Assembly: GCA_964016885.1 (NCBI GenBank)
Contig: OZ024746.1
Span: forward strand, 64,852,001 to 64,916,000
DNA: 64,000 nt
Direction: 5' to 3'
Origin: Eledone cirrhosa
Taxonomy: Eukaryota
The translations under genes and the position numbers were made by a program. The notes beneath the pieces are model-generated. The model was given only the letters and a program-made list of their open reading frames with translations, was not told where the DNA came from and searched no databases. Below, one piece after another: positions 1 through 63,235 of the stretch. How positions within the stretch are numbered: the stretch's first letter is position 1; each line of letters starts with the position of its first letter.

Positions 1-3000
1 CTTACATTACCTCATATTCCTCTTACATTACCTCATATTCCTCTTACATTACCTCATATTCCTCTTACCTTACCTCATATTCCTCTTACATTACCTCATA
101 TTCCTCTTACATTACCTCATATTCCTCTTACATTACCTCATATTCCTCTTACATTACCTCATATTCCTCTTACATTACCTCATATTCCTCTTACCTTACC
201 TCATATTCCTCTTACATTACCTCATATTCCTCTTACCTTACCTCATATTCCTCTTACATTACCTCATATTCCTCTTACATTACCTCATATTCCTCTTACA
301 TTACCTCATATTCCTCTTACATTACCTCATATTCCTCTTACCTTAACTCATATTCCTCTTACATTACCTCATATTCCTCTTACATTACCTCATATTCCTC
401 TTACATTACCTCATATTCCTCTTACATTATCTGATATTCCTCTTACGTTATCTCATATTCCTCTTACATTACCTCATATTCCTCTTACATTACCTCATAT
501 TCCTCTTACATTACCTCATATTCCTCTTACATTATCTCATATTCCTCTTACGTTACCTCATATTCCTATTACATTACCTCATATTCCTCTTACATTATCT
601 CATATTTCTCTTACATTACCTCATATTCCTCTTACATTACCTCATATTCCTCTTACATTACCTCATATTCCTCTTACATTACCTCATATTCCTCTTACAT
701 TACCTCATATTCCTCTTACCTTACCTCATATTCCTCTTACATTACCTCATATTCCTCTTACCTTACCTCATATTCCTCTTACATTACCTCATATTCATTA
801 CCTCATATTCCTCTTACATTACCTCATATTCCTCTTACATTACCTCATATTCCTCTTACCTTACCTCATATTCCTCTTACATACCTCATATTCCTCTTAC
901 ATTACCTCATATTCCTCTTACATTACCTCATATTCCTCTTACATTACCTCATATTCCTCTTACATTACCTCATATTCCTCTTACATTATCTCATATTCCT
1001 CTTACATTATCTCATATTCTCTTACATTACCTCATATTCCTCTTACATTACCTCATATTCCTCTTACATTACCTCATATTCCTCTTACCTTATCTCATAT
1101 TCCTCTTACATTACCTCATATTCCTCTTACATTACCTCATATTCCTCTTACATTACCTCATATTCCTCTTACCTTACCTCATATTCCTCTTACATTATCT
1201 CATTTTCCTCTTACATTACCTCATATTCCTCTTACATTACCTCATATTCCTCTTACCTTACCTCATATTCCTCTTACCTTATCTCATATTCCTCTTACAT
1301 TACCTCATGTTACTCTTACATTACCTCATATTCCTCTTACATTACCTCATATTCCTCTTACCTTATCTCATATTCCTCTTACATTACCTCATATTCCTCT
1401 TACATTACCTCATATTCCTCTTACATTACCTCATATTCCTCTTACCTTACCTCATATTCCTCTTACCTTATCTCATATTCCTCTTACATTACCTCATATT
1501 CCTCTTACATTACCTCATATTCCTCTTACATTACCTCATATTCCTCTTACCTTACCTCATATTCCTCTTACCTTATCTCATATTCCTCTTACATTACCTC
1601 ATGTTACTCTTACATTACCTCATATTCCTCTTACATTACCTCATATTCCTCTTACCTTATCTCATATTCCTCTTACATTACCTCATATTCCTCTTACATT
1701 ACCTCATATTCCTCTTACATTACCTCATATTCCTCTTACCTTACCTCATATTCCTCTTACCTTATCTCATATTCCTCTTACATTACCTCATATTCCTCTT
1801 ACATTACCTCATATTCCTCTTACATTACCTCATATTCCTCTTACCTTACCTCATATTCCTCTTACCTTATCTCATATTCCTCTTACATTACCTCATATTC
1901 CTCTTACATTACCTCACATTCCTCTTATCTTACCTCGTATTCCTCTTACCTTATCTCATATTCCTCTTACATTACCTCATATTCCTCTTACATTACCTCA
2001 CATTCCTCTTACATTATCTCATATTCCTCTTACATTACCTCATATTCCTCTTACATTATCTCATATTCCTCTTACATTACCTCATATTCCTCTTACCTTA
2101 CCTCATGTTCTTCTTACATTACCTCATATTCCTCTTACATTGCCTCATATTACTCTTACATTACCTCATATTCCTCTTACATTACCTCATATTCCTTTAA
2201 CATTATCTCACATTCCTCTTACCTTACCTCATATTCCTCTTACCTTACCTCATATTCCTCTTACATTATCTCATATTCCACTTACATTATCTCATATTCC
2301 TCTTACATTACCTCATATTCCTCTTACATTACCTCATATTCCTCTTACATTACCTCATATTCCTCTTACATTACCTCATATTCCTCTTACATTACCTCAT
2401 ATTCCTCTTACATTACCTCATATTCCTCTTACCTTATCTCATATTCCTCTTACCTTACCTTATATTCCTCTTACATTACCTCATGTTACTCTTACATTAC
2501 CTAATATTCTTCTTACATTACCTCATATTCCTCTTACATTATCTCATATTCCTCTTACATTACCTCATATTCCTCTTACCTTACCTCATATTCCTCTTAC
2601 CTTATCTCATATTCCTCTTACATTACCTCATATTCCTCTTACCTTACCTCATATTCCTCTTACCTTATCTCATATTCCTCTTACATTATCTCATATTCCT
2701 CTTACCTTACCTCATATTCCTCTTACATTACCTCATATTCCTCTTACATTATCTCATATTCCTCTTACATTACCTCAAATTCCTCTTACCTTACCTCATA
2801 TTCCTCTTACCTTATCTCATATTCCTCTTACATTACCACATGTTACTCTTACATTACCTCATATTCCTCTTACATTACCTCGTATTCCTCTTACATTACC
2901 TCGTATTCCTCTTACATTACCTCGTATTCCTCTTACCTTACCTAATATTCCTCTTACCTTAACTCATATTCCTCTTACATTACCTCATATTCCTCTTACA

Positions 3001-6000
3001 TTACCTCATATTCCTCTTACATTACCTCACATTCATCTTAAATTATCTCATATTCCTCTTACATTACCTCATATTCCTCTTACATTACCTCATATTCCTC
3101 TTACATTACCTCATATTCCTCTTACATTACCTCATATTCCTCTTACATTACCTCATATTCCTCTTACATTACCTCATATTCCTCTTACATTCCCTCATAT
3201 TCCTCTTACATTACCTCATATTCCTCTTACATTACCTCATATTCCTCTTACATTACCTCATATTCCTCTTACATTCCCTCATATTCCTCTTACATTACCT
3301 CATATTCCTCTTACATTATCTCATATTCCTCTTACATTACCTCATATTCATCTTACATTATCTCATATTCCTCATACATTACCTCATATTCATCTTACAT
3401 TATCTCATATTCCTCTTACATTACCTCATATTCCTCTTACCTTATCTCATATTCCTCTTACATTACCTCATATTCATCTTACATTATCTCATATTCCTCT
3501 TACCTTACCTCATATTCCTCTTACCTTACTTCATATTTCTCTTACATTATCTCATATTCCTCTTACCTTACCTCATATTCCTCTTACCTTACTTCATATT
3601 TCTCTTACATTATCTCATATTCCCCTTACATTACCTCATATTCCTCTTACCTTACCTCATATATCTCTTACATTATCTCATATTCCCCTTACATTACCTC
3701 ATATTCCTCTTACCTTACCTCATATTTCTCTTACATTATCTCATATTCCCCTTACATTACCTCATATTCCTCTTACCTTACCTCATATTTCTCTTACATT
3801 ATCTCATATTCCCCTTACATTACCTCATATTCCTCTTACCTTACCTCATATTCCTCTTACATTACCTCATATTCCTCTTACATTACCTCATATTCCTCTT
3901 CCATTACCTCATATTCCACTTACATTGCCTCATATTCCTCTTACATTACCTCATATTCCTCTTACATTACCTCATATTCCTCTTACATTACCTCATATTC
4001 CTCTTACCTTACCTCATATTCTCTTAACTTACCTCATATTCCTCTTACCTTACCTTATATTCCTCTTACATTACCTCATATTCCTCTTACATTACCTCAT
4101 ATTCCTCTTACATTACCTCATATTCCTCTTACATTATCTCATATTCCTCTTACATTATCTCATATTCCTCTTACATTATCTCATATTCCCCTTACATTAC
4201 CTTATATTCCTCTTACATTACCTCATATTCCTCTTACATTACCTCATATTCCTCTTACATTACCTCATATTCCTCTTACCTTACCTCATATTCTCTTACC
4301 TCACCTCATATTCCTCTTACATTACCTATATTCCTCTTACATTATCTCATATTCCTCTTACCTTACCTCATATTCCTCTTACATTACCTCATATTCCTCT
4401 TATATTACCTCATATTCCTCTTACATTATCTCATATTCCTCTTACCTTACCTTATATTCCTCTTACCTTACCTCATATTCCTCTTACCTTACCTCATATT
4501 CCTCTTACATTACCTCATATTCCTCTTACTTCATATTCCTCTTACCTTACCTTATATTCCTCTTACCTTACCTCATATTCCTCTTACATTATCTCATATT
4601 CCTCTTACTTCATATTCCTCTTACCTTACCTTATATTCCTCTTACCTTACCTTATATTCCTCTTACCTTAACTCATATTCCTCTTACCTTACCTCATATT
4701 CCTCTTACCTTACCTCATATTCCTCTTACATTACCTCATATTCCTCTTACTTCATATTCCTCTTACCTTACCTTATATTCCTCTTACCTTACCTTATATT
4801 CCTCTTACCTTACCTTATATTCCTCTTACCTTACCTCATATTCCTCTTACATTACCTCATATTCCTCTTACTTCATATTCCTCTTACCTTACCTTATATT
4901 CCTCTTACCTTACCTCATATTCCTCTTACATTATCTCATATTCCTCTTACCTTACCTCACATTCCTCTTACATTTACCTCATATTCCTCTTACCTTACCT
5001 CATATTCCTCTTGCCTTACCTTTTATACCTCTTACCTTACCTCATATTCCTCTTACATTACCTCATATACCTCTTACATTACCTCATATTCCTCTTACCT
5101 TACCTCATATTCCTCTTACCTTATCTCATATTCCTCTTACCTTACCTCATATTCCACTTACCTTACCTTATATTCCTATTACCTTATCTTATATTCCTCT
5201 TACATTACCTCATATTCCTCTTACCTTACCTTATATTCCTCTTACCTTATCTTATATTCCTCTTACATTACCTCATATTCCTCTTACCTTACCTTATATT
5301 CCTCTTACCTTACCTTATATTCCTCTTACATTACCTCATATTCCTCTTACATTACCTCATATTCCTCTTACATTACCTTATATTCCACTTACCTTACCTC
5401 ATATTCCTCTTACAATACCTCATATTCCTCTTACATTACCTCATATTCCACTTACCTTACCTCATATTCCTCTTACATTACCTCATATTCCTCTTACATT
5501 ACCTCATATTCCTCTTACCTTACCTCATATTCCTCTTACGTTACCTCATATTCCTCTTACATTACCTTATATTCCTCTTACATTATCTCATATTCCTCTT
5601 ACATTACCTCATATTCCTCTTACGTTACCTCATATTCCTCTTACATTACCTCATATACCTCTTACATTACCTCATATTCCTCTTACCTTACCTCATATTC
5701 CTCTTACATTACCTCATATTCCTCTTACCTTACCTCATATTCCTCTTACATTATCTCATATTCCTCTTACATTACCTCATATTCCTCTTACATTACCTCA
5801 TATTCCACTTACCTTACCTCATATTCCTCATACCTTACCTCATATTCCTCTTACATTACCTCATATTCCTCTTACATTACCTCATATTCCTCTTACCTTA
5901 CCTCATATTCCTCTTACATTACCTCATATTCCTCTTACATTACCTCATATTCCTCTTACATTACCTCATAATCCTTTTACCTTACCTCATATTCCTCTTA

Positions 6001-9000
6001 CCTTACCTTATATTCCTCTTACCTTACCTCATATTCCTCTTACATTACCTCGTATTCCTCTTACCTTATCTCATATTCCTCTTACATTATCACATGTTCC
6101 TCTTACATTACCTCATAATCCTCTTACCTTACCTTATATTCCTCTTACCTTACCTCATATTCCTCTTACATTACCTCATATTCCTTTAACATTATCTCAC
6201 ATTCCTCTTACCTTACCTCATATTCCTCTTACATTACCTCATATTCCTCTTACATTACCTCATATTCCTCTTACATTACCTCATATTCCTCTTACCTTAC
6301 CTCATATTCTTCTTACATTACCTCATATTCCTCTTACATTACCTCATATTCCACTTACCTTACCTCATATTCCTCATACCTTACCTCATATTCCTCTTAC
6401 ATTACCTCATATTCCTCTTACATTACCTCATATTCCTCTTACATTACCTCATATTCCTCTTACCTTACCTCATATTCCTCTTACATTACCTCATATTCCA
6501 CTTACCTTACCTCATATTCCTCATACCTTACCTCATATTCCTCTTACATTACCTCATATTCCACATACATTACCTCATATTCCTCTCACATTACCTCATA
6601 TTCCTCTTACCTTACCTCATATTCCTCTTACATTACCTCATATTCCTCTTACATTACCTCATATTCCTCTTACATTACCTCATAATCCTCTTACCTTACC
6701 TTATATTCCTCATACATTACCTCATATTCCTTTAACATTATCTCACATTCCTCTTACCTTACCTCATATTCCTCTTACATTACCTCATATTCCTCTTACA
6801 TTACCTCATATTCCTCTTACATTACCTCATATTCCTCTTACCTTACCTCATATTCCTCTTACATTACCTCATATTCCACTTATCTTACCTCATATTCCTC
6901 ATACCTTACCTCATATTCCTCTTACATTACCTCATATTCCACATACATTACCTCATATTCCTCTCACATTACCTCATATTCCTCTTACCTTACCTCATAT
7001 TCCACTTACCTTACCTCATATTCCTCTTACATTACCTCATATTCCTCTTACATTACCTCATATTCCTCTTACATTACCTCATATTCCTCTTACATTACCT
7101 CATATTCCTCTTACATTACCTCATATTCCTCTTACCTTACCTTATATTCCTCTTACATTACCTCATATTCCTCTTACATTACCTTATATTCCTCTTACGT
7201 TACCTCATATTCCTCTTACATTACCTCATATTCCTCTTACATTACCTTATATTCCTCTTACGTTACCTCATATTCCTCTTACGTTACCTCATATTCCTCT
7301 TACATTACCTCATATTCCTCTTACATTACCTCATATTCCTCTTACATTACCTCATATTCCTCTTACATTACCTCATATTCCTCTTACATTACCTCATATT
7401 CCTCTTACATTACCTCATATTCCTCTTACCTTACCTTATATTCCTCTTACATTACCTCATATTCCTCTTACATTACCTTATATTCCTCTTACGTTACCTC
7501 ATATTCCTCTTACATTACCTCATATTCCTCTTACCTTACCTCATATTCCTCTTACATTACCTCATATTCCTCTTACATTACCTCATATTCCTCTTACCTT
7601 ACCTTATATTCCTCTTACATTACCTCATATTCCTCTTACATTACCTCATATTCCTCTTACATTACCTCATATTCCTCTTACATTACCTCATATTCCTCTT
7701 ACATTACCTCATATTCCTCTTACCTTACCTTATATTCCTCTTACATTACCTCATATTCCTCTTACATTACCTTATATTCCTCTTACGTTACCTCATATTC
7801 CTCTTACATTACCTCATATTCCTCTTACCTTACCTCATATTCCTCTTACATTACCTCATATTCCTCTTACATTACCTCATATTCCTCTTACCTTACCTTA
7901 TATTCCTCTTACATTACCTCATATTCCTCTTACATTACCTCATATTCCTCTTACATTACCTCATATTCCTCTTACATTACCTCATATTCCTCTTACATTA
8001 CCTCATATTCCTCTTACATTACCTCATATTCCTCTTACATTACCTCATATTCCTCTTACATTACCTCATATTCCTCTTACCTTACCTTATATTCCTCTTA
8101 CCTTACCTCATATTCCTCTTACATTACCTCGTATTCCTCTTACATTACCTCATATTCCTCTTACATTATCACATGTTCCTCTTACATTACCTCATATTCC
8201 TCTTACATTACCTCATATTCCTCTTACATTACCTCATATTCCTCTTACATTACCTCGTATTCCTCTTACCTTATCTCATATTCCTCTTACATTACCTCAT
8301 ATTCCTCTTACATTACCTCACATTCCTCTTATCTTACCTCGTATTCCTCTTACCTTATCTCATATTCCTCTTACATTACCTCATATTCCTCTTACATTAC
8401 CTCACATTCCTCTTATCTTACCTCGTATTCCTCTTACCTTATCTCATATTCCTCTTACCTTATCTCATATTCCTCTTACATTACCTCATATTCCTCTTAC
8501 ATTACCTCATATTCCTCTCACATTACCTCATATTCCTCTTACCTTACCTCATATTCCACTTACCTTACCTCATATTCCTCTTACATTACCTCATATTCCT
8601 CTTACCTTATCTCATATTCCTCTTACATTACCTCATATTCCTCTTACATTACCTCATATTCCTCTTACATTACCTCATATTCCTCTTACATTACCTCACA
8701 TTCCTCTTATCTTACCTCGTATTCCTCTTACCTTATCTCATATTCCTCTTACATTACCTCATATTCCTCTTACATTACCTCATATTCCTCTTACATTACC
8801 TCATATTCCTCTTACATTACCTCATATTCCTCTTACATTACCTCATATTCCTCTTACCTTATCTCATATTCCTCTTACATTACCTCATATTCCTCTTACA
8901 TTACCTCATATTCCTCTTACATTACCTCATATTCCTCTTACATTACCTCATATTCCTCTTACATTACCTCATATTCCTCTTACATTACCTCATATTCCTC

Positions 9001-12000
9001 TTACATTACCTCACATTCCTCTTATCTTACCTCGTATTCCTCTTACCTTATCTCATATTCCTCTTACATTACCTCATATTCCTCTTACATTACCTCATAT
9101 TCCTCTTACATTACCTCATATTCCTCTTACATTACCTCATATTCCTCTTACATTACCTCACATTCCTCTTATCTTACCTCATATTCCTCTTACCTTATCT
9201 CATATTCCTCTTACATTACCTCATATTCCTCTTACATTACCTCACATTCCTCTTATCTTACCTCGTATTCCTCTTACCTTATCTCATATTCCTCTTACAT
9301 TACCTCATATTCCTCTTACATTACCTCATATTCCTCTTACATTACCTCATATTCCTCTTACATTACCTCATATTCCTCTTACATTACCTCACATTCCTCT
9401 TATCTTACCTCATATTCCTCTTACCTTATCTCATATTCCTCTTACATTACCTCATATTCCTCTTACATTACCTCATATTCCTCTTACATTACCTCATATT
9501 CCTCTTACATTACCTCATATTCCTCTTACATTACCTCATATTCCTCTTACATTACCTCATATTCCTCTTACATTACCTCACATTCCTCTTATCTTACCTC
9601 GTATTCCTCTTACCTTATCTCATATTCCTCTTACATTACCTCATATTCCTCTTACATTACCTCATATTCCTCTTACATTACCTCATATTCCTCTTACATT
9701 ACCTCATATTCCTCTTACATTACCTCATATTCCTCTTACATTACCTCATATTCCTCTTACATTACCTCACATTCCTCTTATCTTACCTCGTATTCCTCTT
9801 ACCTTATCTCATATTCCTCTTACATTACCTCATATTCCTCTTACATTACCTCATATTCCTCTTACATTACCTCATATTCCTCTTACATTACCTCATATTC
9901 CTCTTACATTACCTCATATTCCTCTTACCTTACCTCATATTCCTCTTACATTACCTCACATTCCTCTTATCTTACCTCGTATTCCTCTTACCTTACCTCA
10001 TATTCCTCTTACATTACCTCATATTCCTCTTACATTACCTCATATTCCTCTTACATTACCTCACATTCCTCTTATCTTACCTCATATTCCTCTTACATTA
10101 CCTCACATTCCTCTTACCTTACCTCATATTCCTCTTACATTACCTCACATTCCTCTTACCTTACCTCATATTCCTCTTACATTACCTCACATTCCTCTTA
10201 CCTTACCTCATATTCCTCTTACATTACCTCACATTCCTCTTATCTTACCTCGTATTCCTCTTACATTACCTCATATTCCTCTTACATTACCTCACATTCC
10301 TCTTATCTTACCTCGTATTCCTCTTACCTTATCTCATATTCCTCTTACATTACCTCATATTCCTCTTACATTACCTCACATTCCTCTTATCTTACCTCGT
10401 ATTCCTCTTACCTTATCTCATATTCCTCTTACATTACCTCATATTCCTCTTACATTACCTCATATTCCTCTTACATTACCTCATATTCCTCTTACATTAC
10501 CTCATATTCCTCTTACATTACCTCATATTCCTCTTACCTTATCTCATATTCCTCTTACATTACCTCATATTCCTCTTACATTACCTCATATTCCTCTTAC
10601 ATTACCTCATATTCCTCTTACATTACCTCATATTCCTCTTACATTACCTCATATTCCTCTTACCTTACCTCATATTCCTCTTACATTACCTCACATTCCT
10701 CTTATCTTACCTCGTATTCCTCTTACCTTATCTCATATTCCTCTTACATTACCTCATATTCCTCTTACATTACCTCATATTCCTCTTACATTACCTCATA
10801 TTCCTCTTACATTACCTCACATTCCTCTTATCTTACCTCGTATTCCTCTTACCTTACCTCATATTCCTCTTACATTACCTCATATTCCTCTTACATTACC
10901 TCATATTCCTCTTACATTACCTCACATTCCTCTTATCTTACCTCATATTCCTCTTACATTACCTCACATTCCTCTTACCTTACCTCATATTCCTCTTACA
11001 TTACCTCACATTCCTCTTACCTTACCTCATATTCCTCTTACATTACCTCACATTCCTCTTATCTTACCTCGTATTCCTCTTACCTTATCTCATATTCCTC
11101 TTACATTACCTCACATTCCTCTTACCTTACCTCATATTCCTCTTACATTACCTCACATTCCTCTTACATTACCTCATATTCCTCTTACATTACCTCACAT
11201 TCCTCTTACCTTACCTCATATTCCTCTTACATTACCTCACATTCCTCTTACATTACCTCATATTCCTCTTACATTACCTCGTATTCCTCTTACCTTATCT
11301 CATATTCCTCTTACATTACCTCACATTCCTCTTATCTTACCTCGTATTCCTCTTACCTTATCTCATATTCCTCTTACATTACCTCATATTCCTCTTACAT
11401 TACCTCACATTCCTCTTATCTTACCTCGTATTCCTCTTACCTTATCTCATATTCCTCTTACATTACCTCATATTCCTCTTACATTACCTCACATTCCTCT
11501 TATCTTACCTCGTATTCCTCTTACCTTATCTCATATTCCTCTTACATTACCTCATATTCCTCTTACATTACCTCACATTCCTCTTATCTTACCTCGTATT
11601 CCTCTTACCTTATCTCATATTCCTCTTACATTACCTCATATTCCTCTTACATTACCTCACATTCCTCTTATCTTACCTCGTATTCCTCTTACCTTATCTC
11701 ATATTCCTCTTACATTATCACATGTTCCTCTTACATTACCTCATATTCCTCTTACATTACCTCGTATTCCTCTTACCTTATCTCATATTCCTCTTACATT
11801 ACCTCATATTCCTCTTACATTACCTCACATTCCTCTTATCTTACCTCGTATTCCTCTTACCTTATCTCATATTCCTCTTACATTACCTCATATTCCTCTT
11901 ACATTACCTCATATTCCCCTTACATTACCTCATATTCCTCTTACATTACCTCATATTCTTCTTACATTACCTCACATTCCTCTTACCTTATCTCATATTC

Positions 12001-15000
12001 CTCTTACATTACCTCATATTCCTCTTACATTACCTCATATTCCTCTTACATTACCTCATATTCCTCTTACATTACCTCATATTCCTCTTACATTACCTCA
12101 TATTCCTCTTACATTACCTCATATTCCTCTTACATTATCTCATATTCCTCTTACATTACCTCATATTCCTCTTACATTACCTCACATTCCTCTTATCTTA
12201 CCTCGTATTCCTCTTACATTACCTCACATTCCTCTTACCTTACCTCACATTCCTCTTATCTTACCTCGTATTCCTCTTACATTACCTCACATTCCTCTTA
12301 CCTTACCTCACATTCCTCTTATCTTACCTCGTATTCCTCTTACATTACCTCATATTCCTCTTACATTACCTCATATTCCTTTTACATTACCTCATATACC
12401 TCTTACATTACCTCATATTCCTTTTACATTACCTCATATTCCTCTTACATTACCTCATATTCCTCTTACATTACCTCATATTCCTCTGACATTACCTCAT
12501 ATTCCTCTTACATTACCTCATATACCTCTTACATTACCTCATATTCCTCTTACCTTACCTCATATTCCTCTTACATTATCTCATATTCCTCTTACCTTAC
12601 CTCACATTCCTCTTACATTTACCTCACATTCCTCTTACATTTACCTCATATTCCTCTTACCTTACCTTATATACCTCTTACCTTACCTCATATTCCTCTT
12701 ACATTATCTCATATTCCTCTTACATTATCTCATATTCCTCTTACATTATCTCATATTCCTCTTACCTTATCTTATATTCCTCTTACCTTACCTCAGATTC
12801 CTCTTACCTTACCTTATATACCTCTTACCTTACCTCATATTCCTCTTACATTATCTCATATTCCTCTTACATTATCTCATATTCCTCTTACATTACCTCA
12901 TATTCCTCTTACATTACCTCATATTCCTCTTACATTACCTCATATTCCACTTACCTTACCTTATATTCCTATTACCTTATCTTATATTCCTCTTACATTA
13001 CCTCATATTCCTCTTACGTTACCTCATATTCCACTTACCTTACCTCATATTCCTCTTACAATACGTCATATTCCTCTTACATTACCTCATATTCCACTTA
13101 CCTTACCTCATATTCCTCTTACATTACCTCATATTCCTCTTACATTACCTCATATTCCTCTTACCTTACCTCATATTCCTCTTACATTACCTCATATTCC
13201 TCTTACATTACCTTATATTCCTCTTACATTATCTCATATTCCTCTTACATTACCTCATATTCCTCTTACCTTACCTCATATTCCTCTTACATTACCTCAT
13301 ATACCTCTTACATTACCTCATATTCCTCTTACCTTACCTCATATTCCTCTTACATTACCTCATATTCCTCTTACCTTACCTCATATTCCTCTTACATTAC
13401 CTCATATTCCTCTTACATTACCTCATATTCCACTTACCTTACCTCATATTCCTCATATCTTACCTCATATTCCTCTTACATTACCTCATATTCCTCTTAC
13501 ATTACCTCATATTCCTCTTATATTACCTCATATTCCTCTTACCTTACCTCATATTCCTCTTACATTACCTCATATTCCTTTAACATTATCTCATATTCCT
13601 CTTACATTACCTCATATTCCTCTTACCTTACCTCATATTCGTCTTACATTACCTCATATTCCTCTTACATTACCTCATATTCCTCTTACCTTACCTCATA
13701 TTCCTCTTACATTACCTCATATTCCTCTTACATTACCTCATATTCCTCTTACCTTACCTCATATTCCTCTTACATTATATCATATTCCTCTTACATTACC
13801 TCATATTCCTCTTACCTTACCTCATATTCCTCTTACATTATCTCATATTCCCCTTACATTACCTCATATTCCTCTTACATTATCTCATATTCCTCTTACC
13901 TTACCTCATATTCCTCTTACCTTACCTTATATTCCTCTTACCTTACCTCATATTCCTCTTACCTTACCTCATATTCCTCTTACCTTACCTCATATTTCTC
14001 TTACCTTACCTTATATTCCTCTTACCTTACCTCATATTCCTCTTACCTTACCTCATATTCCTCTTGCCTTACCTTATATTCCTCTTACATTACCTCATAT
14101 TCCTCTTACCTTACCTCATATTCCTCTTACCTTACCTTATATTCCTCTTACCTTACCTCATATTCCTCTTACCTTACCTCATATTCCTCTTACATTACCT
14201 CGTATTCCTCTTACCTTATCTCATATTCCTCTTACATTATCACATGTTCCTCTTACATTACCTCATATTCCTCTTACATTACCTCGTATTCCTCTTACCT
14301 TATCTCATATTCCTCTTACATTACCTCATATTCCTCTTACATTACCTCATATTCCTCTTACATTACCTCACATTCCTCTTATCTTACCTCGTATTCCTCT
14401 TACCTTATCTCATATTCCTCTTACATTACCTCATATTCCTCTTACATTACCTCATATTCCTCTTACATTACCTCATATTCCTCTTACATTACCTCATATT
14501 CTTCTTACATTACCTCACATTCCTCTTACCTTACCTCATATTCCTCTTACATTACCTCATATTCCTCTTACATTATCTCATATTCCTCTTACATTACCTC
14601 ATATTCCTCTTACATTACCTCATATTCCTCTTACATTACCTCACATTCCTCTTATCTTACCTCGTATTCCTCTTACATTACCTCACATTCCTCTTACCTT
14701 ACCTCACATTCCTCTTATCTTACCTCGTATTCCTCTTACATTACCTCATATTCCTCTTACATTACCTCATATTCCTCTTACATTACCTCATATTCCTCTT
14801 ACATTACCTCATATTCCTTTTACATTACCTCATATTCCTCTTACATTACCTCATATTCCTCTTACATTTCCTCATATTCCTCTTACATTACCTCATATTC
14901 CTCTTACATTACCTCATATTCCTTTTATATAACCTCATATTCCTCTTACATTACCTCATATACCTCTTACATTACCTCATATTCCTCTTACCTTACCTCA

Positions 15001-15862
15001 TATTCCTCTTACGTTATCTCATATTCCTCTTACCTTATCTCATATTCCTCTTACCTTACCTCACATTCCTCTTACCTTACCTCATATTCCTCTTACATTA
15101 CCTCATATTCCTCTTACATTACCTCATATTCCTCTTACATTACCTCATATTCCTCTTACATTACCTCATATACCTCTTACATTACCTCATATTCCTCTTA
15201 CCTTACCTCATATTCCTCTTACCTTATCTCATATTCCTCTTACCTTACCTCATATTCCTCTTACATTACCTCACATTCCTCTTACCTTATCTCATATTCC
15301 TCTTACATTATCTCGTATTCCTCTTACATTACCTCATATTCCTCTTACATTACCTCATATTACTCTTACATTACCTCATATTCCTCTTACATTATCTCAT
15401 ATTCCTCTTACATTACCTCATATTCCTCTTACAGTACCTCATATTCCTCTTACCTTACCTCATATTCCTCTTACATTACCTCATATTCCTCTTACATTAC
15501 CTCATATTCCTCTTACAGTACCTCATATTCCTCTTACCTTACCTCATATTCCTCTTACAGTACCTCATATTCCTCTTACATTACCTCATATTCCTCTTAC
15601 AGTACCTCATATTCCTCTTACCTTACCTCATATTCCTCTTACATTATCTCATATTCCTCTTACATTACCTCATATTCCTCTTACATTACCTCATATTCCT
15701 CTTACATTACCTCATATTCCTCTTACCTTACCTCATATTCCTCTTACATTACCTCATATTCATCTTACATTACCTCATATTCCTCTTACATTACCTCATA
15801 TACCTCTTACATTACCTCATATTCCTCTTACATTACCTCATATTCCTCTTACATTATCTCAT
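1..15862. repeat. 21-bp satellite array, consensus CCTCATATTCCTCTTACATTA, ~755 monomers; runs off the left edge
   Basis: Direct tandem periodicity. The LLHYLIF, PHIPLTL and SYSSYIT heptad ORFs are the three frames of the monomer. Array ends at ...acattatctcat|gtttcatt. Confidence 0.98.
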
Positions 15863-20707: not shown

Positions 20708-21155
20708 TCATCATAATCATCATCACCGTTTTATGTCCGTTCTGCCATGCTAGCATGGGTTAGATGGGTTGTCCTGTTGTGGGCAGTGTCCAGTCGGCTG
20801 ACCTTGTCTTGCTCATACAGGAACTGATTCTGGCTTGATTTCTACAGGTGGATGCCCTTCCTAACACCAACCTCATTTACAGTGAGTGCAGGGTGCTTTT
20901 TTTTCCATGGCACCTACACGTCCACTTTACAGTGTGGCCTGAGTGCTTTTTTGCCATGGCACCTTCACGACCACTTTGCTGTGGGAGAGGCCAGGGGCAT
21001 ATTGTCTATATGCTTCAGCTTCGGCTTGTACCCGTGGGGGGTCAGGTCTTCTGTATTACTGCGGGACGCCAGAGGTCACGCCGTGTGTCATCGCCCTTGA
21101 GAGGTGCAATTGGGTAAGGTCGGCTTTTATCACCTCATCACAGGTCTTCTTGGGT
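20708..21155 (-). mobile_element. RTE LINE 3' end with long UTR
   Basis: RPKKTCDEVIKADLTQLHLSRAMT, UTR core ggatgcccttcctaacaccaacc at ~20850, and (CAT)n tail at 20708. Confidence 0.85.
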
Positions 21156-21272
21156 CTATATATATCATCATCATCATCATCATCATCAGGTTTAGCGTCC
21201 GTGTTCCACGCTTGCATGGGTTTGGACGGGGGTTTTCCCACTTGAGGCAAGAGTGGTTGTCTTGCTCGCATA

Positions 21273-21504
21273 GGACTGTCTGGCGGGTTTTCTACAGTTG
21301 GATGCCCTTCCTAACACCAACCACATTTACAGTGTGGGGCTGGGAGGTTTTTACCGTGTTGCCTACACGGCCACATTACAGCGTGGACTGTCTGGCAGGT
21401 TTTCTACAGCTGGATGCCCTTCCTAACACCAACCACATTTACAGTGTGGGGCTGGGAGGTTTTTACCGTGTTGCCTACACGGCCACATTTACAGCGTGGA
21501 CTGT
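21273..21504. repeat. 112-113-bp tandem duplication within the RTE 3' UTR
   Basis: ggactg recurs at 21273, 21385 and 21498, delimiting two near-identical units that each carry the TGCCCTTCCTAACACCAACCAC core. Confidence 0.93.
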
Positions 21505-21675
21505 GTGTTTTTTTTTGTCGTGACACCTACACGATCTCATTTGTTTCAGCCTGGATGTTGTGGGACCAACATAACTTTACATTGAAAGGGGCGGTGTGGA
21601 TGGGGTGAAGGTGGTGGGACGGGGGGGGGTGTTGATAGAGATGCCTACTGACTGTAGTAGGTTTTTACTTTGTAT

Positions 21676-22896
21676 TTAGGTAAGGCGGGTCTTCTCTATT
21701 ACTGAGTACCGCCAAAGGTCTCGGTCCAGTGACATTGTCTTGGAGAGGTGTAAGCGTGTGAGGTCGGAATTTATCAGCTCGTCCCATGTTTTTCTGGGTC
21801 TGCCTACTCCGTGGCTACCGTCTATCTTTATTGCCCTGCACTTTGTTATACAGCTGTCGTCTTTCATGCGCATCACGTGACCGTACCAACGTAGCCTTCT
21901 CTCGAGTAAACAACATCTGATCCCTCTTATTTCTAATTTTTTCCTTAGTTCGTTTATGCTTTGCCGTTCACATATATTACTATTGCACATCCAGCGGAGC
22001 ATGCAAGCTTCGTTCCTCTCTAGTCTGCGTATATCCTCTGCACACAATGCCCAGGTCTCACTGCCATGCAGCATTGCTGTTCGTATGCAGGCATCGTATA
22101 ACCTGCCTTTCATTTTTAGGGAGAACCCTCTAGCGGCTAATAGTGGTATAAGCTCTCTGAACTTTTTCCATCCAGTTCTGACTCTAGCTACTGTACTTTC
22201 AGAGCACCCTCCCCCACTGCTGATTTTGTCACCCAGGTAACGGAAGCTGTCCACTATTTCTATAGAACCCTCTGCGCAGTTGAAGGAGCTAGTATTTTGT
22301 GGGCACTTGCTGCTACTTATTGCACCAGAGCACCGGCCACATGTAAAATCTATGTTCTTAGTTAGCTTACCTGTGATCCCACTACATCTTTTATGCACCC
22401 ATACTTTGCATTTGGGACATAAAATGGAGTTTCTACCTACGCCTTTCCTACACACTGAGCATGGCCATTTCCCAGATGGGACTGCCGCCTTATTTTCTTT
22501 CCTACAAACTAGAACTTTAGTCTTAGCCAGGTTAATTTTAAGGCCTTTTGATTCTAGGCCGTGCTTCCATGTTTGGAATTTCTTCTCTAGTTCGGTCATT
22601 GATTCAGCTATGAGCGTTAGATCATCTGCGTATAGGAGTTCCCATGGGCAGCCGGTCTTGAACTCCTCTGTTATAGCCTGAAGGGCAATAATAAATAGTA
22701 GGGGGCTAAGAACAGAGCCCTGATGGACACCAACTTTTACGCTAAACTCTTCACTATATTCGTTGTTAATTCTAACCTTGCTGACTGTTTCTTTATACAT
22801 GGCTTGTATAGCTCTCACAAGCCATTCGTCAACACCTAGTTTTCTAAGAGACCACCAGATAATGGAACGGGGGACTCTGTCGAAGGCTTTCTCCAT
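21676..22896 (-). CDS. RTE-type reverse transcriptase, C-terminal 406 aa (truncated, lacks the APE endonuclease)
   Basis: Motifs [54 protein letters not shown] and GRPRKTW. Cys/His insert CSVC..CPKC..HKRC..CGRC. No stops. Confidence 0.93.
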
Positions 22897-24377: not shown

Positions 24378-24420
24378 ATCATCATCATCATCGTTGTTTT
24401 GATGTCTGCTTTTCCTGCTA
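24378..24420 (-). mobile_element. RTE/SINE 3' tail ~180 bp upstream of the 23-bp satellite
   Basis: (atc)n-gttgttttgatgtctgcttttcctgctag resembles the tails at 19303, 20708 and 21166. Confidence 0.7.
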
Positions 24421-24596
24421 GGAAGAAGAGCTGCGTGTGTCTACACAGACCAAGTCGGTATAGAAGCAGTGGCTTCTGATCTCTCAGACAAGCCACGGAT
24501 CTGTCGCCTCACTTATGTACACTTTCACATTCTACCAAATGATGTACAGGAGAGGTTGTCATGTCTTTAACACAACTAATTCTCCACCCAGCCCTT

Positions 24597-27500
24597 TGCC
24601 CTTCCTATCACCAACCATTTGCCCTTTCTATCAGCAACCACTTGCCCTTTCTATCAGCAACCACTTGCCCTTCCTATCAGCAACCACTTGCCCTTTCTAT
24701 CACCATCCACTTGCCCTTCCTATCAGCAACCACTTGCCCTTCCTATCAGCAACCACTTGCCCTTTCTATCACCATCCACTTGCCCTTCCTATCAGCAACC
24801 ACTTGCCCTTTCTATCACCATCCACTTGCCCTTCCTATCAGCAACCACTTGCCCTTCCTATCAGCAACCACTTGCCCTTTCTATCACCATCCACTTGCCC
24901 TTCCTATCAGCAACCACTTGCCCTTCCTATCACCATCCACTTGCCCTTCCTATCAGCAACCACTTGCCCTTCCTATCAGCAACCACTTGCCCTTCCTATC
25001 AGCAACCACTTGCCCTTTCTATCAGCAACCACTTGCCCTTTCTATCAGCAACCACTTGCCCTTCCTATCAGCAACCACTTGCCCTTCCTATCAGCAACCA
25101 CTTGCCCTTCCTATCAGCAACCGCTTGCCCTTCCTATCAGCAACCGCTTGCCCTTCCTATCAGCAACCACTTGCCCTTCCTATCACCATCCACTTGCCTT
25201 TTCTATCAGCAAGCACTTGCCCTTTCTATCAGCAACGACTTGCCCTTCCTATCAGAAACCACTTGCCCTTTCTATCAGCAACCACTTGCCCTTTCTATCA
25301 GCAACCACTTGCCCTTCCTATCAGAAACCACTTGCCCTTCCTATCACCAACCACTTGCCCTTCCTATCAGCAACCACTTGCCCTTCCTATCAGCAACCAC
25401 TTGCCCTTCCTATCAGAAACCACTTGCCCTTCCTATCAGAAACCACTTGCCCTTCCTATCAGAAACCACTTGCCCTTCCTATCACCAACCACTTGCCCTT
25501 CCTATCAGCCACCACTTGCCCTTCCTATCACCAACCACTTGCCCTTTCTATCAGCAACCACTTGCCCTTTCTATCAGCAACCACTTTCCTTTTCTATCAC
25601 CAACCACTTGCCCTTCCTATCAGCAACCACTTGCCCTTCCTATCAGCAACCACTTACCCTTCCTATCAGCAACCACTTGCCCTTCCTATCAGCAACCACT
25701 TGCCTTTTCTATCAGCAACCACTTGCCCTTCATATCAGCAACCACTTGCCCTTTCTATCACCAACCACTTGCCCTTCCTATCAGCAACCACTTGCCCTTT
25801 CTATCACCATCCACTTGCCCTTCCTATCAGCAACCACTTGCCCTTCCTATCAGCAACCACTTGCCCTTCCTATCAGCAACCACTTGCCCTTTCTATCACC
25901 AACCACTTGCCCTTCCTATCAGCAACCACTTGCCCTTTCTATCAGCAACCACTTGCCTTTTCTATCAGCAACCACTTGCCCTTTCTATCAGCAACCACTT
26001 GCCCTTCCTATCACCAACAACTTGCCCTTTCTATCACCAACCACTTGCCCTTCCTATCAGCAACCACTTGCCCTTCCTATCACCAACCACTTGCCCTTCC
26101 TATCAGCAACCACTTGCCCTTTCTATCAGCAACCACTTGCCCTTTCTATCAGCAACCACTTGCCCTTTCTATCAGCAACCACTTGCCCTTCCTATCAGCA
26201 ACCACTTGCCCTTCCTATCACCAACCACTTGCCCTTCCTATCACCAACCACTTGCCCTTCCTATCAGCAACCACTTGCCCTTTCTATCAGCAACCACTTG
26301 CCTTTTCTATCACCAACCACTTGCCCTTCCTATCACCAACCACTTGCCCTTTCTATCAGCAACCACTTGCCCTTCCTATCAGCAACCACTTGCCCTTCTT
26401 ATCAGCAACCACTTGCCCTTTCTATCAGCAACCACTTGCCCTTTCTATCAGCAACCACTTGCCCTTCCTATCAGCAACCACTTGCCTTTTCTATCAGCAA
26501 CCACTTGCCCTTGCTATCACCAACCACTTGCCTTTTCTATCAGCAACCACTTGCCCTTCCTATCAGCAACCACTTGCCCTTCCTATCAGCAACCACTTGC
26601 CCTTCCTATCACCAACCACTTGCCTTTTCTATCACCAACCACTTGCCTTTTCTATCACCAACCACTTGCCTTTTCTATCAGCAACCACTTGCCCTTCCTA
26701 TCAGCAACCACTTTCCCTTTCTATCAGCAACCACTTGACCTTTCTGTCACCAACCACTTGCCCTTCCTATCAGCAACCACTTGCCCTTCCTATCACCAAC
26801 CACTTGCCCTTTCTATCAGCAACCACTTTCCCTTCCTATCAGCAACCACTTGCCCTTTCTATCAGCAACCACTTGCCTTTTCTATCACCAACCACTTGCC
26901 CTTCCTATCACCAACCACTTGCCCTTTCTATCAGCAACCACTTGCCCTTCCTATCAGCAACCACTTGCCCTTCTTATCAGCAACCACTTGCCCTTTCTAT
27001 CAGCAACCACTTGCCCTTTCTATCAGCAACCACTTGCCCTTCCTATCAGCAACCACTTGCCTTTTCTATCAGCAACCACTTGCCCTTCCTATCACCAACC
27101 ACTTGCCTTTTCTATCAGCAACCACTTGCCCTTCCTATCAGCAACCACTTGCCCTTCTTATCACCAACCACTTGCCTTTTCTATCACCAACCACTTGCCC
27201 TTCCTATCAGCAACCACTTGCCCTTCCTATCAGCAACCACTTGCCCTTCCTATCAGCAACCACTTGCCCTTTCTATCAGCAACCACTTGCCCTTTCTATC
27301 AGCAACCACTTGCCTTTTCTATCACCAACCACTTGCCCTTCCTATCACCAACCACTTGCCCTTTCTATCAGCAACCACTTGCCCTTCCTATCAGCAACCA
27401 CTTGCCCTTCCTATCAACAACCACTTGCCCTTCCTATCAGCAACCACTTGCCTTTTCTATCAGCAACCACTTGCCCTTCCTATCAGCAACCACTTGCCCT

Positions 27501-48985: not shown

Positions 48986-49185
48986 NNNNNNNNNNNNNNN
49001 NNNNNNNNNNNNNNNNNNNNNNNNNNNNNNNNNNNNNNNNNNNNNNNNNNNNNNNNNNNNNNNNNNNNNNNNNNNNNNNNNNNNNNNNNNNNNNNNNNNN
49101 NNNNNNNNNNNNNNNNNNNNNNNNNNNNNNNNNNNNNNNNNNNNNNNNNNNNNNNNNNNNNNNNNNNNNNNNNNNNNNNNNNNNN
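48986..49185. other. Assembly gap (200 N)
   Basis: Run of N. Confidence 1.
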
Positions 49186-55904
<6,719 letters not shown>

Positions 55905-55980
55905 TAATATAAAAGACTTAAAATAAGAACATTTAAAAAAAAAAATTTTTTTTAAATTAACTTACCTACTTAAATTTTCA

Positions 55981-56060
55981 CTCCAACTAATTAGTTTCTG
56001 CAATGGGATAGAGACAGTTACGTAATGACCTGTTGAGAATTTCATTGCGTCATCAGGGAG
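55981..56060 (-). ncRNA. Type I hammerhead ribozyme motif (copy A)
   Basis: Reverse complement reads CUCC-CUGAUGA-C-GCAAUG...CAUUGC-A-GAAA-CUAAUUAG-UU-GGAG. Confidence 0.7.
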
Positions 56061-56854
56061 ATCATTCTCAGCCAAGTCTCCAGGCAATGCGCGGACACTG
56101 GGGACTCATATAAAAATAATAATAATTCGGTAAATGTAACAGCTATCGAGGACTGGATTCCAGGTACTAGAATTCTCACTGCCACTGATCATATGGCCGA
56201 TTCTAAAGAATCAATCACGTGACACAGAGGCTAGTCAGTAGGAATGGGATGGTAAGATGACAGACGCCTACTAACACCCCCAAAAAATGTTGAAGTGGTT
56301 TTGGCAGGTTTGCTCGACAAATCAGTGATTTGGAGATAAATATAGATAATTTAATATATCTACTAACATAAGCGCAAAGATGTACGCCAATGCCAGTAAA
56401 TACACAGGTTATGTCATAGTACCTAGGTGGTTCTTCTTTTCTTATTCTTCTTTTCTAAATAAGAAAGAAGAATAAGAAAAGAAGAACCACCTAGGTACTA
56501 TGACATAACCTGTGTATTTACTGGCATTGGCGTACATCTTGCGCTTATGTTAGTAGATATATTAAATTATCTATATTTATCTCCAAATCACTGATTTGTC
56601 GAGCAAACCTGCCAAAACCACTTCAACATTTTTTGGGGTGTTAGTAGGCGTCTGTCATATTACCATCCCATTCCTACTGACTAGCCTCTGTGTCACGTGA
56701 TTGAATCTTTAGAATCGGCCATATGATCAGTGGCAGTGAGAATTCTAGTACCTGGAATCCAGTCCTCGATAGCTGTTCCATTTACCGAATTATTATTATT
56801 TTTATATGAGTCCCCAGTGTCCGTGCTTTGCCTGGAGACTTGGCTGAGAATGAT

Positions 56855-56934
56855 CTCCCTGATGACGCAATGAAATTCTCAACAGTTCATTACGTAACTG
56901 TCTCTATCCCATTGCAGAAACTAATTAGTTGGAG
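56855..56934 (+). ncRNA. Type I hammerhead ribozyme motif (copy B)
   Basis: Stem I CUCC/GGAG; core CUGAUGA at 56859; stem II GCAAUG/CAUUGC with inner hairpin ACAGUU/AACUGU; GAAA at 56917; palindromic stem III ACUAAUUAGU; GUU cleavage triplet. Confidence 0.72.
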
Positions 56935-57124
56935 TGAAAATTTAAGTAGGTAAGTTAATTTAAAAAAAAAATTTTTTTTTAAAATTTTCTTATTTTACGT
57001 CTTTTATATTATTGTTCTGCATCCTCCTGCATTGTACCACCTAGGTACTATGACAAAACCTGTGTATTTGCTGGCATTGGCGTACATCTGTGCGCTTATG
57101 TTAGCAGATATATTAAATTATCTC

Positions 57125-59490
<2,366 letters not shown>

Positions 59491-59570
59491 TAATATAAAA
59501 GACTTAAAATAAGAACATTCTAAAAAAAAAAAATTCTTTTTTAAATTAACCTTACCTACTTAAATTTTCA

Positions 59571-59650
59571 CTCCAACTAATTAGTTTCTACAATGGGATA
59601 GAGACAGTTACGTAATGACCTGTTGAGAATTTCATTGCGTCATCAGGGAG
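59571..59650 (-). ncRNA. Type I hammerhead ribozyme motif (copy C)
   Basis: As copy A, but the stem II closing pair is G-U (CAUUGU). Confidence 0.65.
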
Positions 59651-60462
59651 ATCATTCTCAGCCAAGTCTCCAGGCAATGCGCGGACACTGGGGACTCATA
59701 TAAAAATAATAATAATTTGGTAAATGTAACAGCTATCGAGGACTGGATTCCAGGTACTAGAATTCTCACTGCCACTGATCATATGGCCGATTCTAAAGAA
59801 TCAATCACGTGACACAGAGGCTAGTCAGTAGGAATGGGATGGTAAGATGACAGACGCCTACTAACACCCCCAAAAAATGTTGAAGTGGTTTTGGCAGGTT
59901 TGCTCGCCAAATCAGTGATTTGGAGATAAATATAGATAATTTAATATATCTACTAACATAAGCGCAAAGATGTACGCCAATGCCAGTAAATACACAGGTT
60001 ATGTCATAGTACCTAGGTGGTTCTTCTTTTCTTATTCTTCTTTTCTTATTTTACGTCTTTTATATTATTGTTCTGCATCCTCCTGCATTGAACCACCTAG
60101 GTACTATGACATAACCTGTGTATTTGCTGGCATTGGCGTACATCTGTGCGCTTATGTTAGTAGATATATTAAATTATCTATATTTATCTCCAAATCACTG
60201 ATTTGTCGAGCAAACCTGCCAAAACCACTTCTAAATTTTGTTGGGGTGATAGTAGGCGTCTGTCATATTACCATCCCATTCCTACTGACTAGCCTCTGTG
60301 TCACGTGAGTTAATCTTTAGAATCGGCCATATGATCAGTGGCAGTGAGAATTCTAGTACCTGGAATCCAGTCCTCGATAGCTGTTCCATTTACCGAATTA
60401 TTATTATTTTTATATGAGTCCCCAGTGTCCGTGCATTGCCTGGAGACTTGGCTGAGAATGGT

Positions 60463-60542
60463 CTCCCTGATGACGCAATGAAATTCTCAACAGTTCATTA
60501 CGTAACTGTCTAAATCCCATTGCAGAAACTAATTAGTTGGAG
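60463..60542 (+). ncRNA. Type I hammerhead ribozyme motif (copy D)
   Basis: ctcc-ctgatga-c-gcaatg...cattgc-a-gaaa-ctaattag-tt-ggag. Confidence 0.72.
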
Positions 60543-60732
60543 TGAAAATTTAAGTAGGTAAGTTAATTTTAAAAAAAAATTTTTTTTTTAAATTTTCTTA
60601 TTTTACGTCTTTTATATTATTGTTCTGCATCCTCCTGCATTGTACCACCTAGGTACTATGACATAACCTGTGTATTTGCTGGCATTGGCGTACATCTGTG
60701 CGCTTATGTTAGCAGATATATTAAATTATCTC

Positions 60733-62723
<1,991 letters not shown>

Positions 62724-62880
62724 ATTGTTATACTTTGGGAGGGTCATGTTGCCAATAAGAAACACACGCACCAGTTGCTTTCACTTCAATTTAATTTAAT
62801 ATATATTTATAAATTTACAAATTTATAAATTTCTGGTTGGTTGGCTGGTTCCACAACCAGATAGTTGTTTATATATATAT

Positions 62881-62925
62881 AGTCATAGTTCTTTCGTCAC
62901 ACACTCTGTGACCTCTTCAGTGACT
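62881..62925 (-). ncRNA. Minimal type I hammerhead ribozyme in the PLE 3' region
   Basis: Minus strand: AGUCA-CUGAAGA-G-GUCACA(GAGUG)UGUGAC-GAAA-GAAC-UA-UGACU. Stem I AGUCA/UGACU, 6-bp stem II, minimal stem III. Confidence 0.8.
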
Positions 62926-63109
62926 GGGGATTTCTTTCTTCGTTTCTGTGCCTTTCCTTTCTTCTATCCTACGCCATTTTGTTTGTGTGTGGGTTGCGTG
63001 CTCAGTTTGCGCATACGCCACATCCGGGTGTCTGTGTGTGTTTGTGTTCATTTTTCTATTTTTCTATTTATATTTGTTTGTTTATTTATTTATTTTTTGT
63101 TGGTTGGTT

Positions 63110-63235
63110 GTTTGTTCTATGTGTGTGTGTGTTTTCATTTTGTCTTGTGTGTGTTTTCATTTTGTGTGTGTTTTCAATTGTAAGTTGTTTGTTCTATGTG
63201 TGTGTGTGTTTTCATTTTGTCCTTAATTGTAAGTT
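63110..63235. repeat. Short imperfect tandem repeats in the PLE 3' UTR
   Basis: ttgtttgttctatgtgtgtgtgtgttttcattttgtc and aattgtaagttg each occur twice. Confidence 0.75.

What the first reader, a model, noticed from the sequence alone, without database searches (positions are those of the whole stretch)
24378..24660. 24-kb satellite appears to have arisen in place from the RTE 3' UTR core motif
The monomer variant TGCCCTTCCTATCACCAACCAC differs by 1 nt from TGCCCTTCCTAACACCAACCAC in the RTE UTR (21303, 21415; similar at 20853), in the same orientation. The first monomer (24597) starts TGCCCTTCCTATCACCAACCA. It is preceded by gagaggttgtcatg 43 bp upstream (cf. gagtggttgtcttg 48 bp upstream of 21303) and by the family (CAT)n tail at 24378. 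Inference: a ~23-bp piece of a retroposon copy was amplified more than 1000-fold.
Basis: partly seen in the sequence, partly recalled or inferred. Interest (0 to 1): 0.75.

Follow-up and report, generated by a model that had tools for sequence, protein, structure and literature searches.

The report
Satellite born inside one retrotransposon tail
A 24,000-base run of a 23-letter repeat, found at only this spot in the assembly, starts where the same 23 letters belong in the tail of a decayed jumping-gene copy, so it most likely grew on the spot from that copy; this is a clear but ordinary case of a transposon seeding satellite DNA.

Summary
The array (24596-48985, 1,060 x 23 bp, cut by an assembly gap) is single-locus: 812 of 812 genome matches lie in this window. 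Its left flank (24378-24595) is the 3' end of an old, dispersed LINE subfamily. In 8 of 14 paralogues the monomer sequence follows 26-28 bp after the flank, so the monomer is the next piece of the same element, behind a 26-bp deletion found only here. The source is not the young RTE-like copy at 21303: that shares only a 21-bp core, present about 54,000 times genome-wide. Fifteen other copies show independent 2- to 147-fold duplications of this core or the adjoining segment, so the core is no special hot spot. The seed was likely one microhomology template switch (deletion plus duplication), later amplified by unequal exchange (77% of monomers lie in duplicated blocks). The far end is unassembled. 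This is a known kind (transposon-derived mini/satellite), and the scan has noted RTE-tail satellites several times on other DNA of this genome. Here the unit was not a pre-existing tandem of the element.

The parts
24378..24392 (-). (ATG)n 3' tail of the founder retroelement copy, read as (ATC)n on +
   Evidence: sequence; the paralogues start at the same kind of tail
24393..24595 (-). Decayed 3' UTR remnant of an old LINE subfamily (founder copy)
   Evidence: 1,448 candidates, 40 scored, best paralogues 75-81% identical; 31 of 205 differences from the column majority of 12 copies; 11 of 12 loci found with a UTR-ORF query carry both this flank and RT-like coding sequence
24595..24598 (.). Point of a 26-bp deletion relative to the subfamily, with a 2-nt TG microhomology, directly before monomer 1
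   Evidence: alignments; core offset 1 here against 26-28 in paralogues; the joined form matches once in the genome
24596..48985 (+). 23-bp tandem array, 1,060 monomers, commonest TTGCCCTTCCTATCAGCAACCAC; irregular higher-order blocks; minimum length
   Evidence: single locus
48986..49185 (.). 200-N assembly gap that cuts the array; the far border is missing
   Evidence: no element sequence found in 49186-64000 plus the next 10 kb
21164..22893 (-). Younger RTE-like LINE copy, 5'-truncated: RT and PHD coding fragment 21676-22893, 3' UTR with the core twice (21303, 21415; 112-bp repeat). A relative, not the source
   Evidence: ORF; Pfam RVT_1 E 3.5e-20, PHD E 5.8e-6; TRF; shares only the core with the founder
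20708..20960 (-). Another retroelement 3' end carrying a core variant at 20853; not the source

Best explanation
The array sits at a single locus and begins at the position of its own monomer within a decayed LINE 3' UTR copy, and it most likely grew there from that copy. Step 1 (shown): an old RTE-like subfamily copy lies tail-first at 24378. Step 2 (lesion shown, mechanism inferred): 26 bp before the core were lost and the 23-bp core was duplicated. This was likely one microhomology template switch during break repair: the left end primed at a TG 26 bp downstream, copied the core, and rejoined at a T at the start of the original core. That one event gives both the deletion and the usual monomer junction. 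Step 3 (inferred): the dimer lengthened by slippage and unequal exchange or gene conversion, gained three common variants, and recently doubled blocks of 0.7-1.8 kb. It is probably neutral. Odds: in-place origin about 0.9; one-step repair seed about 0.45 of the seed routes.
For: Single locus, 812 of 812. The flank is a dispersed element, and the monomer is its next segment in 8 of 14 paralogues, with a ninth at 8 mismatches. The T variant is shared with that subfamily. The deletion junction is unique in the genome. The 23-mer is not tandem in the paralogues inspected; their internal repeat is about 135-145 bp. A parallel lesion exists in the same subfamily at L069: spacer lost at a 5-nt CCCTT microhomology plus a 23-bp duplication of the core. 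A size series of independent duplications exists: 2 copies (L068, L069), about 4 (L065, L100), 6.2 (L117) and 147 x 19 bp from the adjoining segment (L154). Exchange inside the array: all four combinations at monomer positions 9 and 16, and at 6 and 16, are common. 77% of monomers lie in duplicated blocks of 20 or more, against 0 in 5 of 5 shuffles; the longest block is 79 monomers with 1 differing.
Against: The far border is not assembled, so resumption of the element is untested. Of 15 other duplication loci inspected, 7 end at the duplication instead of resuming, which also fits a seed made during insertion. The microhomologies at the founder are only 1-2 nt. The first junction differs by one base from 1,042 of 1,043 monomers. 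No contig of three short-read runs spans the flank-array junction or holds the founder flank exactly; the tool warns that holes prove nothing. Near-identical kilobase blocks could be partly mis-assembled. The link between this lesion pattern and polymerase-theta repair is recalled, not from a call.
Confidence: 0.8

Rival explanations
1. Same place of origin, but the seed was made during retrotransposition: the reverse transcriptase jumped forward 26 nt, then back 23 nt, perhaps repeatedly, at the 5' truncation point, and the array later grew from that multimer.
For: The + strand here reads as first-strand cDNA. 7 of 15 other duplication loci end at the duplication, including the 6.2-copy and 147-copy arrays. 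One monomer type still equals the subfamily core as seen in L128, although the flank is about 15% diverged, which hints at an early seed.
Against: 8 of 15 loci resume the element after the duplication. There is no direct sign of an insertion-time event, and one paper search on template jumping in RTE gave only an R2 paper (listing only).
Confidence: 0.25
2. Same place of origin in two steps: the 26-bp deletion came first and created short TT/TTT direct repeats around the core, then replication slippage duplicated the unit (Haber-Louis model).
For: After the deletion the unit is flanked by TT. The model is the standard one for minisatellite birth (PMC6947457, passages). Clean duplications without deletion exist (L068, L134, L136).
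Against: The model as quoted uses 5-10 bp repeats; here they are 2-3 bp. The longest flanking repeat (4 bp) would give a 24-bp unit, not 23. It needs two rare events at adjacent sites, whereas L069 shows the same pairing of lesions.
Confidence: 0.2
3. The satellite arose elsewhere from another copy of the core and was inserted or recombined into this element copy by homology.
For: The core is very abundant, the assembly has gaps, and a 26-bp loss at the border could be an insertion scar.
Against: No other copy of the array is in the assembly. The array starts in register with an ancestral-type monomer, and it carries the T of this subfamily.
Confidence: 0.05
4. The array length or the junction is an assembly artefact at a contig end.
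For: The array ends at a gap, its blocks are near-identical, and no short-read contig spans the junction.
Against: The junction is collinear with the element's own sequence, which a mis-join would not produce. Short-read contigs hold monomer dimers at a summed depth of 4,148-6,306, against 7.6-7.8 for a unique neighbour in two of those runs. These runs may be the assembly's own sample, and depth is no copy number.
Confidence: 0.04

Closest known systems
Retroposon-derived minisatellites: Alu-derived (Jurka and Gentles 2006), mouse B1-derived VNTR (Bois 1998), MaLR-derived Ms6-hm/Hm-2 (Kelly 1994); seen only as cited in PMC6947457 and PMC9659126 (passages)
   Same: A short unit cut from inside a dispersed retroelement copy, expanded in place, with a seed ascribed to short direct repeats.
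   Different: LINE 3' UTR of an invertebrate; at least 24 kb, with irregular higher-order blocks; the seed is coupled to an adjacent deletion.
SINE-derived satellites (sSat) of squamates, PMC10702118 (part 1 of 5 and 9 passages read)
   Same: Part of a retroposon amplified in tandem; loci range from a few units up to about 950; the longest cobra locus is 94% alike; locus-specific variants alternate.
   Different: sSat units are 70-290 nt and recur at many loci; this unit is 23 nt and private to one locus.
Ogre 3' UTR satellites of Lathyrus and pea PisTR-A, PMC7004042 (abstract and outline only); PMC9659126 (passages)
   Same: A retrotransposon 3' UTR is the source, and arrays expand occasionally in single copies.
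   Different: There the tandem already exists in the element. Here the 23-mer is single within each ~135-bp UTR repeat in the paralogues inspected and needed a new duplication. Ogre is an LTR element.
LINE 3'-derived satellites: chicken HinfI (CR1 3' UTR) and the common cetacean satellite (L1 3' end), as tabulated in PMC9659126
   Same: LINE 3' end as the monomer source.
   Different: Here the founder copy is still attached and the array is single-locus; I did not read those papers.

Membership tests
Transposon-derived tandem repeat (minisatellite/satellite) | Monomer homologous to a segment of a dispersed element | tested here: met
   One monomer type equals the core in L128; 8 of 14 paralogues carry it at 6 or fewer mismatches
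Transposon-derived tandem repeat (minisatellite/satellite) | Head-to-tail array far longer than in the element | tested here: met
   1,060 copies against one per UTR repeat
Transposon-derived tandem repeat, grown in place | Proximal border collinear with the element | tested here: met
   the 26-bp deletion is private
Transposon-derived tandem repeat, grown in place | Element resumes or ends at the distal border | not testable with these tools
   assembly gap at 48986; nothing found beyond it
Ogre-type (pre-existing tandem in the element expands) | Monomer already tandem in ordinary element copies | tested here: not met
   single in the paralogues inspected; tandem forms at a handful of loci against 53,759 exact cores
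Classical multi-locus heterochromatic satellite DNA | Present at many loci or in very large blocks | tested here: not met
   812 of 812 matches in this window; true length unknown
Classical multi-locus heterochromatic satellite DNA | Heterochromatic or centromeric location | not testable with these tools
   no chromatin data; it lies between two other large arrays
LINE (non-LTR retrotransposon) 3' end as founder | UTR joined to an RT-coding frame and ending in a simple-repeat tail | tested here: met
   11 of 12 loci found with a UTR-ORF query hold both (selected for this); RVT_1 in the window's relative
RTE clade | RT phylogeny within RTE; AP endonuclease; no separate ORF1 | not tested
A microsatellite tail is common in RTE (PMC9115989, passage)

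The most novel reading that the evidence does not exclude
One microhomology template switch (polymerase-theta-type repair, or reverse-transcriptase stutter at insertion) deletes a spacer and duplicates the neighbouring 20-30 bp in a single step. In this genome such seeds arise at roughly one in several thousand LINE tails and form a visible series from 2 to over 1,000 copies. The assembly would then record satellite birth from non-tandem sequence, with the seed lesion readable and repeated independently in the same subfamily (L069).
Probability: 0.35. Interest if true: 0.55.

Novelty: new member of a known kind. Interest (0 to 1): 0.3.

Why it matters
The first duplication is the least observed step in satellite birth. 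Here the founder element, the seed lesion and a size series of sister events are all readable, so a genome-wide count could separate repair, slippage and reverse-transcriptase jumps as the source of new tandem repeats. A single-locus array of this size would also likely be a hypervariable marker. No function is suggested by the evidence.

Tried and rejected
(1) The copy at 21303 as the source: rejected; only the core aligns and the core is everywhere. (2) The core as a special duplication hot spot: not supported. The adjoining segment gave 67 matches at 7 loci, against 20 matches at about 8 element-derived loci for the core pattern. The baselines of the two patterns were not counted separately. 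(3) A multi-locus satellite family: rejected within the assembly. The looser search gave 202 matches: 91 in the window, 18 listed outside (11 in two unrelated 21-bp arrays), 93 outside that I did not see. Stricter searches listed in full showed no other long array of this core (one C1 match not inspected). (4) Polarity: the share of ancestral-type bases is nearly flat along the array, with a slight fall at position 6, so there is no clear age gradient. (5) Coding: the long ORFs over the array follow from a stop-free unit on +; they are not evidence of a gene. (6) Reads: no RNA holder listed; the RAD runs gave no test of the locus; no orthologue in another species was available. (7) Element remains beyond the gap: none. 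(8) Print: six searches listed no paper on a cephalopod LINE-derived satellite. The library lacks most subscription papers, and no supplements were read.

Full report
Observation. The window holds a 23-bp array at 24596-48985 (1,060 copies, 93% matches) that stops at a 200-N gap. The monomer it names is the third commonest (141 of 1,043 23-mers) and is 1 nt from the core at 21303. The host is an animal genome of 3.0 Gb in 1,796 contigs. That it is octopus-like rests on my recall of these repeats and on earlier scan notes, not on a test.

Single locus. A 34-base pattern across the monomer junction matches 812 times in the genome, all on one strand, and the window alone gives 812. A pattern for the flank-to-monomer joint matches once.

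The flank is the founder. Window 24385-24600 finds 1,448 candidates; the 40 scored are 75-81% identical. Aligned paralogues start at an (ATC)n tail like 24378 and run collinear up to 24595. In 8 of 14 fetched paralogues the monomer sequence follows 26-28 bp later at 2-6 mismatches, in a ninth at 8; five are truncated or rearranged before it. Shuffles reach 6 mismatches in at most 1 of 200 per locus. In a second set of 11 loci, four show it at the same offset with 1-2 mismatches, three show it at other projected offsets, three do not, and one had no flank hit. Here the offset is 1, so the founder has lost 26 bp, at a TG microhomology. The array has T at monomer position 13 in 1,043 of 1,043 units. 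The subfamily has T there in 6 of 8 and 4 of 4 of those copies, while the young copy at 21303 has A.

Which element. One paralogue (L008) runs on into coding sequence 66% like the window's RT frame. A search with its UTR-ORF stretch gave 12 loci, of which 11 hold the founder-like flank and all 12 hold RT-like sequence (selected for this). The window's own frame (21676-22893, minus strand) has RVT_1 and a PHD finger. So the founder is the 3' UTR of an old LINE subfamily: 31 of 205 differences from the column majority, 18% mean pairwise within the family. The RTE label was not tested by a tree. The young copy at 21164-22893 shares only the core with the founder in a local alignment (score 37, against 187 and 202). 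The exact core occurs 53,759 times, so a copy 3 kb away is expected.

Sister events. Searches for tandem forms and inspection gave 15 element-derived duplication loci. Nine involve the core: L058, L065, L068, L069, L100, L104, L107, L115, L117. Six involve the adjoining segment: L134-L138 and L154. Sizes run from 2 copies to 6.2 x 23 bp (L117) and 147 x 19 bp (L154, 2.8 kb). Units and junctions mostly differ, so they are independent. Eight resume the element afterwards and seven end there. Left out as partial or doubtful: L098, L101, L102/L121, L114, unrelated simple arrays, and two matches not fetched (C1, C21). 93 outside matches were not listed. The adjoining segment duplicates about as often as the core, so no hot spot is shown.

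Mechanism. Shown: the deletion, the 23-bp unit and their adjacency. Inferred: one template switch explains both. If the left end primes at the TG 26 bp downstream, copies the core plus one or two T, and rejoins at the T that starts the original core, the product is the observed deletion followed by the usual monomer junction. L069, in the same subfamily, has the same anatomy with a 5-nt microhomology. Deletion with a templated insertion is, from my recall, the mark of polymerase-theta end joining. A reverse-transcriptase jump during insertion would leave the same string, and two-step slippage remains possible. Amplification is inferred from structure. Three positions vary at 16-43%, with all four combinations at positions 9/16 and 6/16. 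77% of monomers lie in duplicated blocks of 20 or more, against 0 in 5 shuffles. The longest block is 79 monomers with one differing, and lags vary with no single period. This fits unequal exchange or conversion much younger than the insertion, with mis-assembly as a caveat.

Reads. Three runs of one sample hold 4 of 36 sampled words. Their contigs pile on monomer dimers at a summed depth of 4,148-6,306, but none spans the junction or holds the founder flank exactly. Two of the three hold a unique neighbour at 99% or better, at depth 7.6-7.8. This fits a real high-copy array. It is not a copy number and may not be independent of the assembly.

Known context. Retroposon-derived minisatellites and the short-repeat seed model are reviewed in PMC6947457 (10 passages) and PMC9659126 (12 passages). 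Squamate sSats reach about 950 units (PMC10702118; part 1 of 5 and passages). Ogre 3' UTR arrays expand from pre-existing tandems (PMC7004042; abstract). PMC13282606 (10 passages) has no occurrence of 'satellite' at word start in its main text. PMC5786205 and PMC9115989 (12 passages each) gave RTE background only. Six searches listed no cephalopod case; supplements were not read. The scan's own notes list 8 LINE-derived satellites elsewhere in this genome, six described as 48-bp or tail-repeat arrays (unchecked). None matched this sequence or place.

Verdict. It is a new member of a known kind, interest 0.3. Its distinctive point is a readable de novo seed in non-tandem sequence.

Noticed in passing
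window 1-15862, and L155 (10 kb upstream): A second array, 21-bp unit, at least 25.8 kb. Its right border runs into another dispersed element, and the monomer resembles that element's adjoining segment (best 17 of 20 with L087, 4 of 300 shuffles; 3 of 9 loci show the same alignment). Suggestive of a second in-place birth, but weak because AT-rich.
   Followed up: partly
L154 (G000:C15:35407980-35410775): An independent 147 x 19-bp array, 97% matches, from the UTR segment adjoining and overlapping the core; both borders are assembled and the element does not resume after it.
   Followed up: partly
L069 (G000:C6:18494038, minus strand): Same subfamily as the founder: spacer lost at a 5-nt microhomology plus a two-copy 23-bp duplication of the core; looks like an unexpanded seed.
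   Followed up: partly
window 55932-56983: A ~1.05-kb near-perfect palindrome (arms of about 525 bp, 97-100% complementary, 10-nt centre at 56454-56463) inside the (TA) array, with a partial third copy at 57036-57130. It may be a fold-back rearrangement or a read artefact.
   Followed up: partly
window 49186-62725: A 13.5-kb degenerate (TA/TG) microsatellite directly after the gap; three very large arrays lie within 64 kb.
   Followed up: no
L090-L095 (G000:C27:21.705 Mb): A ~120-bp tandem array built from the element that borders the 21-bp array.
   Followed up: no
window 21676-22893 (minus strand): An intact 405-aa RT C-terminal frame with a PHD finger directly after the RT domain.
   Followed up: partly
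L053-L057 (G000:C1:406.05-406.13 Mb) and L059-L064 (G000:C2:213.61-213.69 Mb): Two further 21-bp CA-rich arrays whose matches spread over about 70-80 kb each; origin not examined.
   Followed up: no
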